This document shows, piece by piece, positions 40,540 through 42,997 of a DNA stretch of 64,000 nt. The DNA lies in the IMG/VR virus record IMGVR_UViG_3300034108_000145, positions 32,001-96,000 of that record; one strand, given 5' to 3'. The notes under the pieces are model-generated. The model ran no database searches, had not been told where the DNA came from, and saw nothing but the letters and a program-made list of their open reading frames with translations. Both the position numbers and the translations under genes were made by a program. The stretch is from a virus. Every line of letters begins with the position of its first letter. The first letter of the stretch is position 1.

Positions 40540-40802
40540 TGTTTAATCTAGGTTGTTGGTGTATTCCTTGGAAACCAACCAGCGTTAGTCAGTATGTCCT
40601 GTATTTACAATCTGACACCATGAAACCCAAACGATATTCCCTGCAAAGGGTTACTGGAATTGTAGGCCAACCAGTGTAATATAAAACCAACCTTCTGATG
40701 ACACCAAAGTGTTAGCCCTAGAAGCGGGGCTTAGTAGAGATATAATGCGAAGTGAAACTCTACTATGTTTTCCATTACACACAAACCCTAAAATCATTCA
40801 AT

Positions 40803-41108
40803 ATGAGAAAGTCAGAACTATACGCTAGATATGATATGTTTAATCAAGACATAGAAGAGATTGACATGTCAGAGTTTCACGACCACTTTGTTCAAGAGAA
40901 TAAAGAGTTTATTTCTTTTATAGATCAGGATAGTACAAACATTACAACTATCAGACTAGACGGTTGTAAGTATATGAAGTATGCTTCACACTGGAATGTT
41001 GGCTGGCAAGGCGACATAGATGGTGATGTATTCTATTGTAAGATAAAAACTATGACTGAGAAAGAGACAGAAGAATTGAGACAGTTACTTACGTCAGATG
41101 CATTTTAA
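40803..41108 (+). CDS. Hypothetical protein (likely start MRKS at 40803)
   Basis: TAAAATCATTCAAT leader before ATG. Confidence 0.65.
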   Translation: MRKSELYARYDMFNQDIEEIDMSEFHDHFVQENKEFISFIDQDSTNITTIRLDGCKYMKYASHWNVGWQGDIDGDVFYCKIKTMTEKETEELRQLLTSDAF

Positions 41109-41164
41109 CAAGATTTAGTGGTGAACTGGGCCTGTTGTGGGTCTGGTTCACCTTAAAATATTCT

Positions 41165-41865
41165 CCTTTGGAGACTCGGCCGCTTATGGTCGTTAGGATA
41201 AACCTGGTGACAGGTATATAAGGTGTGCGTAAACAAGCGTATCATCTACAGCTTTGTGCTGGCCATGTAAGCAAGCAAGCAACGATTGCAATGGGGAAAT
41301 CTCTGAGCAATTACAGTGTTAGCATACACTGTTGAGTGGGAAACCACAATAGGACAACTTGTAGAATATATGTGAGAGCTCTTTACCAAGAGAGCAATTG
41401 CGTTATTCAGTGAGCAATAGGTGCGGTAACAGCATCTGTTTTTCACCGTAGACTGGTAATCTACACTGGGGCGTTGTAGTACGCATTCCTCAAAAGGGAG
41501 TGAGCTGCAATCTAATGGCACGTCCTGGATTATGCTATTGTAAAAATTAATCTAATTAATTTAACGAAAGTCTGTTAGTTCTCTAGGTCAAAGTACCTTA
41601 TCTGTATGAAATATGACAGCACAGCCAGTACCGTAAGGAAAACTGTGAGATGGCAAGAGTATATCTAAGTAGCTGCAGGGATGTAGCTAAGGATCATCCA
41701 ATCCACTTGGTAGAAATTAATATCTATGTAGTCTAGAGAGAGATCCCTCAGGAGTGAGGCAAAACACTGGTACTATCATCTACAATGGAGTAATCTATTG
41801 TGTGTATAAGCGGGGGTAACCCTGTGAAAACGGTGATACACTAAAGGTCAACACTCAGCCTATTA
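41165..41865 (+). ncRNA. Large ornate non-coding RNA, GOLLD/ROOL-like (boundaries approximate)
   Basis: ~700 nt without a credible ORF, raised GC, many short hairpins with GNRA loops, long-range complementarities, immediately followed by a tRNA. Confidence 0.65.
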
Positions 41866-41869
41866 GTAT

Positions 41870-41939
41870 AATCAGGTAGCTTAATGTAAAGCATCTAACG
41901 ATTAATTAGAAGACGTGGGTTCGAGTCCCATCCTGGTTA
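41870..41939 (+). tRNA. tRNA-like gene with aberrant anticodon loop (CG-ATT-AA; nominally Asn-ATT)
   Basis: AATCAGG/CCTGGTT acceptor, GCTT/AAGC D-arm, TCTAA/TTAGA anticodon stem, GTGGG-TTCGAGT-CCCAT T-arm; followed by CAA. Confidence 0.7.
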
Positions 41940-41940
41940 C

Positions 41941-42058
41941 AAAACCGGCATTGTTAACTGTTTTATGAGATTGGTGTTACTCATCTAGAAATCCTCCCTA
42001 TAGAAGTGTCTGCAGCACCATATGTATAATTGGATTTAAACATTAACAATGCGGTTTT
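41941..42058 (+). ncRNA. Structured RNA closed by a long stem
   Basis: AAAACCG-GCATTGTTAA-CTGTTT ... AAACA-TTAACAATGC-GGTTTT with internal hairpins ATGAG/CTCAT and AAATCC/GGATTT. Confidence 0.45.
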
Positions 42059-42102
42059 ACCTTTTAAACTATTTACACATCACTTAAAAAAATTAATCCA
42101 TC

Positions 42103-42264
42103 ATGGAAAAAACTTTAATTAGAGGAAAAAGATTCCATCTAAAATTCATCAAGAACACAGTATTATTTGGCATTAGCTATGATAAGCCAGACTTATTCAT
42201 AGCTTTCCTATTCTTTGTAGCAGAAATAACCTTCTCTAAAAGAAGAGGACCAAGAACCTTTTAA
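42103..42264 (+). CDS. Hypothetical 53-aa protein (not in ORF track)
   Basis: MEKTLIRGKRFHLKFIKNTVLFGISYDKPDLFIAFLFFVAEITF...; followed by a terminator. Confidence 0.5.
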   Translation: MEKTLIRGKRFHLKFIKNTVLFGISYDKPDLFIAFLFFVAEITFSKRRGPRTF

Positions 42265-42285
42265 GATTTTCATAAGGCAAGCAAA

Positions 42286-42322
42286 AAGCTCCTGCGTTTC
42301 TACGTGGGGGCTCTATTTTTTA
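42286..42322 (+). terminator. Intrinsic terminator
   Basis: AGCTCCTGCG-TTTCTA-CGTGGGGGCT then T-tract. Confidence 0.6.
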
Positions 42323-42341: not shown

Positions 42342-42452
42342 TTGAAAAAGTTATTAATCATTAGCATTATTACTATGCTAGGAACAAGTTGTGCAGTTTA
42401 TAACCCACAGCATCCACCTAAATACTATCGTTGTACGGTAGTAGTAAGATAA
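42342..42452 (+). CDS. Small lipoprotein, 36 aa (TTG start; not in ORF track)
   Basis: MKKLLIISIITMLGTSC-AVYNPQHPPKYYRCTVVVR*: signal peptide II with lipobox; TAAATCAATC leader. Confidence 0.55.
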   Translation: MKKLLIISIITMLGTSCAVYNPQHPPKYYRCTVVVR

Positions 42453-42478
42453 TTTTCCACCCACAAAATTCATTTAAC

Positions 42479-42997
42479 ATGAAACAGTTTAAACTAACTA
42501 ATCCATTCACTTGTGAAGATATCCAAGTGACTGTGAACATACGTCATTATAACAATGGACGTCCGGCAATTGAGTTATTAGAAATGGATCCAGATTATGG
42601 TCCTACACCTTACATGACTGCAAGTGTAAACTTACCAGATGTATTACTTCAACCTAATGAAGTTTTAATCAAGGATTACTCTGAGAATGAGGGCATTACA
42701 AACTTTTTACATAAACATAATATAGTTACACCAACTAATAATTGGGTTAGAAGCGGTTATGTAGAAGTACAAGTGTGTGTTCTTAATCCTGAATCAGAGT
42801 GGGGTATTACACCTGAGGTTTATTCATTAGATGAAGAACCTGAATACTTTGTAAAAGAGAATAATATTATGGATCCTATACCAGAAGAAATTAATATAGA
42901 AACTGGTAAATGTTTATGGACAATTAACGGGTATAAAATCTGGGCTGATGATTATAAACAAGCCACAGAACTATTACCTATGATAGAATCATTCTAA
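42479..42997 (+). CDS. Hypothetical protein (likely start MKQF at 42479)
   Basis: YNNGRPAIEL..PYMTASVNLPD..EVLIKDYSENEG domain. Confidence 0.75.
   Translation: MKQFKLTNPFTCEDIQVTVNIRHYNNGRPAIELLEMDPDYGPTPYMTASVNLPDVLLQPNEVLIKDYSENEGITNFLHKHNIVTPTNNWVRSGYVEVQVCVLNPESEWGITPEVYSLDEEPEYFVKENNIMDPIPEEINIETGKCLWTINGYKIWADDYKQATELLPMIESF

What the first reader, a model, noticed from the sequence alone, without database searches (positions are those of the whole stretch)
41165..41865. ~700-nt ornate ncRNA (GOLLD/ROOL class or new) in a crAss-like phage
Seen: no credible ORF and dense hairpins, many with GNRA-type loops (ACCTG-GTGA-CAGGT, GTGG-GAAA-CCAC, CC-GTAA-GG, ACAATGGA-GTAA-TCTATTGT, GCGGG-GGTAA-CCCTGT, CATTCCT-CAAA-AGGGAGTG). 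Long-range pairings include GTTGAGTG (41331) with CACTCAGC (41852) and TCACCGT (~41443) with ACGGTGA (~41830). A tRNA begins a few nt downstream. Known: GOLLD and ROOL RNAs are large (roughly 600-800 nt) phage-associated RNAs of unknown function often next to tRNAs. Inference: this is a member or a new relative.
Basis: partly seen in the sequence, partly recalled or inferred. Interest (0 to 1): 0.78.

Follow-up and report, generated by a model that had tools for sequence, protein, structure and literature searches.

The report
Compact divergent GOLLD RNA in phage
The gene-free stretch encodes a shortened, divergent copy of GOLLD, a known giant phage RNA that builds hollow RNA-only cages; it is real and expressed in lake and estuary samples, but it is a known kind of RNA.

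Summary
Window 41176-41861 (+) encodes a 686-nt structured RNA. It belongs to the known GOLLD family (Rfam RF02032), not to ROOL and not to a new class.

- **Family match:** the model matches over its full length (81 bits, E 4e-21) but below Rfam's cut-off of 150.
- **Structure:** a 184-pair structure is 92.9% paired across 9 homologs, against 36-44% for slid partners. 106 pairs show compensatory change.
- **5' half:** it is homologous to the 5' domain of canonical GOLLDs but about 100 nt shorter.
- **Expression:** metatranscriptome contigs from 4 studies cover only 41173-41915 and none of the flanking genes.
- **Context:** a tRNA-like gene follows 8 nt downstream, as in canonical GOLLD loci.
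- **Host phage:** a 130-kb virus with a crAss-like portal and giant virion protein.
all six hairpins hold. The two long-range pairings are not supported.

The most unusual feature is a pair of hairpins that correspond by position to the cage-joining loops. They stand in swapped order, and their loops are GGGA and CAUCCA. These are complementary to each other but not to themselves.

This scan reached a similar reading before on other DNA (e1-5941616).

Verdict: a real, expressed, compact variant of a known RNA family, of modest interest.

The parts
41176..41861 (+). Whole GOLLD-family RNA (686 nt)
   Evidence: Conservation among homologs starts at 41176/41177 and stops at 41861. A 184-pair structure is 92.9% paired across 9 sequences. 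RNA-library contigs cover 41173-41915 only.
41176..41465 (+). 5' domain (about 290 nt, 13 helices)
   Evidence: RNAalifold predicts 82 pairs, 51 of them with compensatory change, in 9 sequences. An HMM of this domain finds the region upstream of canonical GOLLD 3' domains in 8 of 14 (E 2.7e-8 to 1.6e-4). The canonical domain is about 390 nt.
41336..41347 (+). Hairpin with invariant GAAA loop inside the conserved TTGAG...CAATAGG block
   Evidence: 100% paired, 3 of 4 pairs covary (helix 10). It aligns with a GGAA-loop hairpin of canonical GOLLDs. It is a possible counterpart of L11a (GAAA) described in PMC12286853 (passages read); that mapping is inferred.
41466..41861 (+). 3' domain, matched by Rfam GOLLD model
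   Evidence: RF02032 scores 81 bits, E 4e-21, model 1-416 of 416. Mapped on 14 sequences, 84 Rfam pairs are 81.3% paired against 39-45% when slid. 59 pairs show double change and 0 of 500 shuffles reach this.
41512..41518 (+). 5' strand of the 7-bp helix that closes the linker (pairs with 41572-41578)
   Evidence: 98.4% paired, 5 of 7 pairs with double change (helix 16). 7 of 7 pairs form in 13 of 15 sequences, including 7 canonical GOLLDs, and 6 of 7 in the other two. The helix is not part of the nested Rfam consensus.
41529..41571 (+). A/U-rich variable linker
   Evidence: Poorly conserved and A/U-rich. It aligns to the unpaired A/U-rich stretch of the Rfam model. The equivalent linker of env-38 is disordered and points into the cage (PMC12286853).
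41572..41578 (+). 3' strand of the linker-closing helix
   Evidence: See 41512-41518.
41670..41689 (+). Hairpin h1, 8 bp, loop GGGA (41678-41681)
   Evidence: 90.1% paired, 5 of 8 pairs with double change (helix 23). Relatives outside the subclade carry GGCA here.
41691..41704 (+). Hairpin h2, 4 bp, loop CAUCCA (41695-41700)
   Evidence: 100% paired, 3 of 4 pairs covary (helix 24). Relatives outside the subclade carry C-GCAA-G type loops here.
41846..41860 (+). Terminal hairpin with 9-nt loop CAACACUCA (counterpart of the last Rfam hairpin)
   Evidence: 3 invariant pairs (helix 29). It aligns to model positions 402-416.
41870..41940 (+). tRNA-like gene 8 nt downstream, probably co-transcribed
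   Evidence: Rfam tRNA 57.6 bits. ARAGORN calls Asn with anticodon ATT. One RNA-library contig runs from 41244 to 41915, across the junction. It is the only tRNA match in the 129,765-bp genome.

Best explanation
Window 41176-41861 (+) is the gene for a compact (686-nt), divergent member of the GOLLD family of large phage non-coding RNAs.

Shown here:
- It is non-coding and folds into about 29 helices in two domains.
- Both domains are homologous to those of canonical GOLLD RNAs.
- It is present at 100% identity in environmental RNA libraries in which its flanking genes are not assembled.
- It is followed 8 nt downstream by a tRNA-like gene, the usual GOLLD arrangement.

Inferred:
- It is made together with the tRNA-like RNA, and RNase P cleavage at the tRNA 5' end releases its 3' end.
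- Like GOLLD env-38 (cryo-EM, 14 copies, D7 symmetry), it assembles with copies of itself into a hollow RNA cage. The 5' domains would form the caps, the 3' domains the ring, and the A/U-rich linker would point inwards.
- It acts during lytic growth, probably on the translation or tRNA side. What the cage does is not known for any GOLLD.
For: **Family match.** RF02032 matches 41466-41861 at 81 bits, E 4e-21, model 1-416 of 416 (same).

**Relatives score along a continuum.**
- 11 hits from 87.4 to 132 bits were found in 94 viral records (6 of 49, 5 of 45).
- 17 of 20 loci fetched with the family's 3'-end motif score 159-323 bits.

**Structure.**
- The Rfam structure mapped on 14 sequences is 81.3% paired, against 39-45% when slid. 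59 of 84 pairs show double change and 0 of 500 shuffles reach this.
- The full curated structure on 9 sequences has 184 pairs and is 92.9% paired, against 36-44% when slid. 106 pairs show double change and 0 of 500 shuffles reach this.
- The linker-closing helix is shared with 7 of 7 canonical GOLLDs examined.

**5' domain.** Its HMM hits the region upstream of 8 of 14 canonical 3' domains.

**tRNA context.** tRNAs lie 7-18 nt downstream of 7 canonical GOLLDs among the 20 loci scanned (L241, L251, L269, L275, L278, L285, L296).

**Expression.**
- 23 RNA-labelled runs from 14 studies hold 12-40% of the words of 40700-42300.
- Contigs of 4 runs from 4 studies have 0 mismatches and cover 41173-41915 only. 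The flanks 40700-41172 and 41942-42300 are empty.

**Strand and coding.** z -5.94 against -0.48. The antisense ORF is broken in 8 of 8 homologs.

**Cage.** Cage formation and the domain roles come from PMC12286853 (passages read).
Against: - The score is below Rfam's gathering cut-off (81 against 150). None of the 11 related viral hits reaches it either.
- L043, L208, L215 and L218 are clear homologs by nhmmer, but their records gave no RF02032 match at E 1e-3. That tool's first-look filter may be the cause.
- The RNA is about 100-150 nt shorter than the family norm, and the loss lies in the domain that forms the cage cap.
- The two hairpins that correspond by position to the cage-joining loops have non-palindromic loops. 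The env-38 interface cannot be assumed.
- The contigs are assemblies. They cannot give true RNA ends or the strand, and RNA libraries can hold DNA. The empty flanks argue against DNA.
- tRNA adjacency is not conserved in this clade. None of the 13 other loci scanned has a tRNA next to the RNA.
Confidence: 0.9

Rival explanations
1. It is a GOLLD descendant whose quaternary structure has changed. With a cap domain about 100 nt shorter and cage-joining loops that pair with each other (GGGA with UCC) instead of with themselves, it would form a cage of another size or a differently joined assembly. This refines the best explanation and does not contradict it.
For: - The 5' domain is about 290 nt against about 390 nt, with two deletions.
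- The order of the two hairpins is reversed relative to canonical GOLLDs.
- All 15 rows with a GGGA loop in the first hairpin have UCC or UCU in the loop of the second. None of the 38 other rows has GGGA. I labelled the loops by hand, and one row (mL444) is ambiguous for the second loop.
- On a 53-row tree built without these columns, the joint state needs 3 changes.
- An earlier follow-up in this scan reached a like reading on another genome (e1-5941616).
Against: - Well supported branches force only 2 changes, and the sign test gives p 0.5.
- On the 19-row tree, a single origin is not rejected (AU p 0.078).
- GGGA also fits the GNRA tetraloop pattern.
- CAUCCA keeps an AU dinucleotide, like the CAUAA loops of some canonical copies. 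Other readings are therefore open.
- My mapping of these hairpins to L21a/L21b of the solved structure rests on position alone.
Confidence: 0.3
2. It is a new class of large RNA, or a ROOL relative, that only resembles GOLLD by chance or convergence.
For: It scores below Rfam's GOLLD cut-off. Some clade members are not found by the model at all.
Against: - E 4e-21 over the whole model.
- Helix-by-helix covariation on the Rfam structure.
- Sequence-level homology of the 5' domain, which the Rfam model does not cover.
- The shared linker-closing helix.
- No ROOL match at E up to 10.
Confidence: 0.03
3. It is not a stand-alone RNA gene. It would be a long structured leader or processing scaffold of the downstream tRNA-like RNA, or a protein-coding region on the opposite strand.
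For: One RNA-library contig bridges the RNA and the tRNA. The window has a 91-aa antisense ORF.
Against: - 13 homologous loci lack an adjacent tRNA yet keep the RNA.
- The antisense ORF is broken in 8 of 8 homologs.
- The minus strand does not fold better than shuffles.
Confidence: 0.03

Closest known systems
GOLLD RNA (Rfam RF02032; canonical lake and marine phage copies; env-38 solved by cryo-EM, PMC12286853)
   Same: - Two-domain build.
- 3'-domain helices and terminal hairpin.
- A/U-rich linker closed by a covarying 7-bp helix.
- Homologous start of the 5' domain, including a GNRA-capped hairpin in the TTGAG...CAATAG block.
- Phage-encoded, with a tRNA a few nt downstream.
   Different: - 686 nt against 800 or more.
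- The 5' domain is about 100 nt shorter.
- 81 bits against 159-323 bits for canonical copies.
- The two hairpins in the junction that holds the cage-joining loops stand in reversed order. Here they carry GGGA and CAUCCA instead of GGCA and C-GCAA-G.
- The P22-region hairpin is placed differently. The Rfam mapping is only 53.6% paired, while the local alternative is 95.2% paired (helix 25).
- The downstream tRNA is not the tRNA-Met seen after 4 canonical copies.
Related GOLLD copies from viral contigs L220, L217/L228, L009/L211 and L222
   Same: They share the 3'-end motif and the hairpin order. L220 also shares the compact 5' domain.
   Different: They score higher on RF02032 (91.8-132 bits). 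Except for L222, they keep GGCA and GCAA-type loops. L009, L211, L217 and L222 have longer, partly different 5' domains.
ROOL RNA
   Same: A large ornate phage-associated RNA, often near tRNAs, that forms an RNA-only cage (PMC12286853, passages read).
   Different: No match to the Rfam ROOL model at E up to 10. The paper describes ROOL's sequence and fold as distinct from GOLLD.

Membership tests
GOLLD (RF02032) | Statistically significant match to the family covariance model over its full length | tested here: met
   81 bits, E 4e-21, model positions 1-416 of 416. 1.1e-22 against the whole genome.
GOLLD (RF02032) | Score at or above Rfam's gathering cut-off of 150 bits. This is a curators' annotation threshold, not a structural feature. 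| tested here: not met
   81 bits. The 11 related viral hits score 87.4-132 bits. Canonical copies score 159-323 bits. I still file it as a divergent member, because homology is shown independently for both domains.
GOLLD (RF02032) | Conserved 3'-domain helices kept by compensatory change | tested here: met
   84 mapped pairs are 81.3% paired against 39-45% when slid. 59 show double change and 0 of 500 shuffles reach this. Weak spots are the P22 mapping (53.6%) and the two small hairpins, which the model aligns as an insertion plus a deletion.
GOLLD (RF02032) | Variable A/U-rich linker after the first 3'-domain hairpin, enclosed by a covarying long-range pairing | tested here: met
   Linker 41529-41571. 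The helix 41512-18 with 41572-78 forms 7 of 7 pairs in 13 of 15 sequences, including 7 canonical ones.
GOLLD (RF02032) | Less conserved 5' domain upstream of the 3' domain, homologous among members | tested here: met
   nhmmer with this clade's 5'-domain HMM hits 8 of 14 canonical upstream regions, E 2.7e-8 to 1.6e-4, HMM positions 2-250. Alignment. Here the domain is about 290 nt against about 390 nt.
GOLLD (RF02032) | Encoded by phages or prophages, often beside tRNAs | tested here: met
   The record is a 129,765-bp virus record and the tRNA lies 8 nt downstream. The same spacing of 7-18 nt is seen after 7 canonical copies.
GOLLD (RF02032) | Length of about 800 nt or more (typical, per PMC12286853) | tested here: not met
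   686 nt by conservation and by RNA contigs.
GOLLD (RF02032) | Self-complementary loops that join the two half-shells (L21a, L21b in env-38) | tested here: inconclusive
   The hairpins at the corresponding position carry GGGA and CAUCCA, which are complementary to each other and not to themselves. The mapping to L21a/L21b is by position only.
GOLLD (RF02032) | Homo-oligomeric RNA-only cage (14-mer in env-38) | not testable with these tools
   No RNA 3D or assembly tool was available. This needs mass photometry or cryo-EM.
ROOL | Match to the Rfam ROOL covariance model | tested here: not met
   ROOL is absent from the list of all matches with E up to 10 over 41000-42150.

The most novel reading that the evidence does not exclude
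This subclade of GOLLD has rewired its cage. The two loops that in env-38 each pair with their own copy across the equator have become a complementary pair (GGGA with UCC), so the half-shells would be joined by crossed, unlike contacts. Together with a cap domain shortened by about 100 nt, this would give a natural cage of different size or geometry. The joint loop change seems to have arisen two or three times.
Probability: 0.3. Interest if true: 0.6.

Novelty: new variant of a known kind. Interest (0 to 1): 0.4.

Why it matters
GOLLD is one of very few natural RNAs known to build a closed cage without protein, and its function is unknown. This copy adds four things.

- **Annotation gap.** Routine Rfam annotation misses a whole freshwater and estuarine clade. 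No member here reaches the cut-off, so the family is wider than the databases show.
- **New phage group.** The family extends to phages with crAss-like head and virion genes. I found no paper in the searchable library that holds both 'GOLLD RNA' and 'crAss-like'.
- **A smaller natural version.** It is about 15% shorter than env-38's 833 nt and is expressed in nature. That could be a handier object for structural and assembly work.
- **A natural experiment.** The paired change of the two loops bears on how RNA cages are held together.

None of this overturns what is known. The class, its fold and its tRNA neighbourhood are already described.

Tried and rejected
**Searches that found nothing**
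- blastn of the stretch against 50,697 phage records gave no match.
- A first pattern for relatives was too A/T-rich.
No host was inferred, and this says nothing about prophages.
- The conserved leader seen upstream of the RNA in other loci is not a repeated motif in the window: 2 matches at 3 mismatches against 1.96 expected.
- The sigma-70 and terminator scan gave nothing above chance at the RNA's 5' end. The promoter is unknown.

**Readings rejected or left open**
- Coding on the antisense strand: rejected.
- RNAalifold's own long-range pairs between the start and end of the 3' domain had no compensatory change, so I dropped them.
- The tRNA after the RNA is not a close relative of the tRNA-Met genes after canonical GOLLDs.
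- One origin of the GGGA+UCC state is not rejected (AU p 0.078).

**Not seen or not searched**
- Supplementary files of PMC12286853, including its GOLLD alignments and contact tables, were not seen. They may already hold compact or loop-swapped variants.
- I read passages of that paper only.
- L047, L206 and L225 were not held, so they were not searched.

Full report
**What is there**

The window is bases 32001-96000 of a 129,765-bp virus record that CheckV rates complete. Between an ORF that ends at 41108 and a tRNA at 41870 lies a stretch with no credible ORF. Folded as RNA, 41110-41869 gives z -5.94 on the + strand, with 0 of 20 shuffles as stable. The minus strand gives z -0.48, with 6 of 20 as stable. 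G+C is about 0.40-0.43 here, against roughly 0.30-0.35 in most of the downstream stretches.

**Family**

At Rfam's gathering thresholds the whole window yields only the tRNA. With permissive thresholds on 41000-42150, the GOLLD model RF02032 matches 41466-41861 end to end. The match covers model positions 1-416 of 416 at 81 bits, E 4e-21, against a cut-off of 150. Apart from the tRNA, nothing else is convincing. ROOL, OLE, HEARO, RNase P and the intron models do not appear at E up to 10.

**Relatives**

The ORF downstream (42431-42997) brought in 78 related viral loci. Three routes then found relatives of the RNA:
- RF02032 found sub-threshold matches (87.4-132 bits) in 6 of 49 records and in 5 of 45 further records.
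- blastn and nhmmer found clear homologs that RF02032 did not report at E 1e-3: L043/L045, L208, L215 and L218.
- A pattern from the 3' end gave 25 stretches, 14 of them with nhmmer hits.

Together with the window this gives 14 distinct sequences. Their identity to the window ranges from about 47% to 90%. A scan of metagenome contigs with the 17-nt 3' end gave 109 stretches, 50 of them with nhmmer hits and 40 distinct.

Conservation begins at 41176/41177 and stops abruptly at 41861 in every alignment.

**Structure**

I mapped the Rfam consensus structure through the alignment onto a MAFFT alignment of 14 3' domains.
- 84 pairs are 81.3% paired, against 39-45% when partners are slid by 1-3 columns.
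- 59 pairs show change on both sides.
- 0 of 500 shuffles reach the observed values.

The 5' domain of the 9 sequences that align well folds into 82 pairs, 51 of them with compensatory change.

I then built a curated full-length structure from four sources. These were the 5'-domain RNAalifold pairs, the Rfam-mapped 3' pairs, three local hairpins that fit this clade better than the Rfam mapping, and one pseudoknot-type helix.
- It has 184 pairs in 29 helices.
- It is 92.9% paired, against 36-44% when slid.
- 106 pairs show double change, and 0 of 500 shuffles reach this.

Part of this structure was derived from these same sequences, which favours it somewhat. The Rfam-derived part was not.

The extra helix (41512-18 with 41572-78) closes the A/U-rich linker. 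All 7 pairs form in 13 of 15 sequences, including 7 canonical GOLLDs, with many different letters.

**Comparison with canonical GOLLD**

I fetched 63 viral stretches with the 3'-end motif of the Rfam consensus. Of 20 scanned, 17 hold GOLLD above the cut-off, at 159-323 bits.
- Seven have a tRNA 7-18 nt downstream.
- Three have a tRNA inside the linker.
- Several have a tmRNA gene nearby.

An HMM of this clade's 5' domain hits the region upstream of 8 of 14 canonical 3' domains, at E 2.7e-8 to 1.6e-4. The alignment shows the same opening hairpin, the same GNRA-capped hairpins and the same TTGAG-hairpin-CAATAG block. The canonical domain is about 390 nt and carries two segments that are missing here. 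Both domains are therefore homologous, and this RNA is a shortened GOLLD.

**Expression**

Twenty-three RNA-labelled runs from 14 studies (freshwater, estuary, river) hold 12-40% of the sampled words of 40700-42300. The RNA makes up 43% of that stretch.

I laid contigs from four runs of four studies. All have 0 mismatches.

| Run | Cover |
|---|---|
| X1 | 41175-41859, in three pieces |
| X2 | 41244-41915 |
| X3 | 41179-41795 |
| X4 | 41173-41770, flanked by adapter-like loose ends |

Nothing lies on 40700-41172 or 41942-42300. Contigs cannot fix RNA ends. Still, three studies start within 6 nt of the conservation boundary, and the flanking genes are absent. That fits a stable, abundant RNA and argues against DNA carry-over. 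The X2 contig crosses into the tRNA, which fits co-transcription.

**Mechanism**

The shown facts are those above. From PMC12286853 (passages read):
- GOLLD env-38 (833 nt) forms a 14-mer cage with D7 symmetry.
- The 5' domains form the caps and the 3' domains form the ring.
- The linker is disordered inside the cage.
- Two self-pairing kissing loops (L21a, L21b) and one A-minor contact join the half-shells.

By homology I infer a similar self-assembly here. I also infer that the 3' end is released by RNase P cutting at the tRNA 5' end.

**What differs**

*Length.* The RNA is 686 nt, and the loss lies in the cap domain.

*Hairpin order and loops.* In the junction that by position holds L21a and L21b, canonical copies have a C-GCAA-G (or CAUAA) hairpin followed by a GGCA hairpin. 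The whole clade around the window has them in the opposite order. The window's subclade has GGGA and CAUCCA instead.
- GGGA and UCC are complementary to each other, and neither loop is self-complementary in the way GGCA is.
- All 15 rows with GGGA have UCC or UCU in the second loop. None of the 38 others has GGGA. I labelled these by hand, and one row is ambiguous.
- On a 53-row tree built without these columns, the joint state needs 3 changes, of which supported branches force 2. The sign test cannot reach significance (p 0.5).
- On a 19-row tree, a single origin is not rejected (AU p 0.078).
- GGGA also fits the GNRA pattern, so a swap of roles between the two hairpins is an alternative reading.

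I wrote this idea down. At I learned that an earlier follow-up in this scan had proposed the same kind of re-coding for a 977-nt GOLLD in another crAss-like phage (e1-5941616). That repeat is not independent evidence.

**The phage**

- The portal is 33.6% identical to that of Leptolyngbya phage Lbo-JY46, an unclassified Caudoviricetes. It is 22-24% identical to portals of crAss-like phages.
- The three giant ORFs in the window are tail fibres.
- Beyond the window lies a 3387-aa protein with Dda-like helicase and DprA-like parts. Its core matched 114 phage records. Their organism names are mostly crAssphage or crAss-type uncultured phages and Bacteroides, Flavobacterium and Cellulophaga phages. 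The best match is 29% identity at E 3e-49.

'crAss-like' is therefore fair at a distance.

**Verdict**

The object is a known kind of RNA in a compact, divergent form. Interest is modest. The loop re-pairing and the short cap are the parts worth an experiment.

Noticed in passing
window 41870-41940: The tRNA-like gene has an odd anticodon loop. By the Rfam alignment the loop reads C-G-A-U-U-A-A, so G stands where U33 is expected and the anticodon is AUU (ARAGORN: Asn, att). It is the only tRNA match in the 129,765-bp genome. It may be a processing handle or cargo rather than a decoding tRNA.
   Followed up: partly
L012:590-655 and the same place upstream of the RNA in L010, L208, L215, L218, L220, L009/L211, L217, L222: A conserved leader of about 65 nt, with a hairpin whose stem differs between loci, sits just upstream of the RNA's first hairpin in these loci. 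The window and L002/L003 have different upstream sequence. It is not repeated in the window. It could be a promoter region or an extra 5' element.
   Followed up: partly
window 41120-41152: A strong 33-nt hairpin follows the upstream ORF and is conserved in L002/L003, differing from the window only in the loop. It is not covered by the RNA-library contigs. It is probably the upstream gene's terminator and not part of the RNA.
   Followed up: partly
window 41443-41449 against 41775-41780 and 41830-41837: A 5'-domain segment resembles the 5' strand of helix 41775-80/41832-37, and it can pair with the same 3' strand in 5 of 9 sequences, by my reading of the aligned rows (one search gives 75.9% paired, 3 pairs with change on both sides). 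This may be a competing or alternative pairing, or a coincidence.
   Followed up: partly
L267, L296, L241, L275, L285, L278, L269; L218:5368-5857: tmRNA genes lie within 1-2 kb of canonical GOLLD genes in seven viral contigs. One member of the window's clade (L218) has a tRNA-Ile followed directly by a tmRNA, about 3.3 kb from its GOLLD.
   Followed up: no
L295:2644-2718 (inside GOLLD 2321-2781) and L295:1291-1368: A canonical GOLLD carries, inside its linker, a tRNA that ARAGORN calls Pyl with anticodon CTA, which reads the amber codon. A second such tRNA lies 1 kb away.
   Followed up: no
L527:8352-18515 (-), that is G000:C1:118351-128514: A 3387-aa ORF joins a core like the virion proteins of crAss-like phages with a DprA-like part and a Dda-like helicase.
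   Followed up: partly
G004, G006 (records of L005, L007): Two records rated at least 92% complete (131 kb and 120 kb), whose homolog of ORF 42431-42997 is 52-53% identical, gave no RF02032 match at E 1e-3 and no blastn match in the loci held. The RNA seems to be an accessory gene in this phage group.
   Followed up: partly
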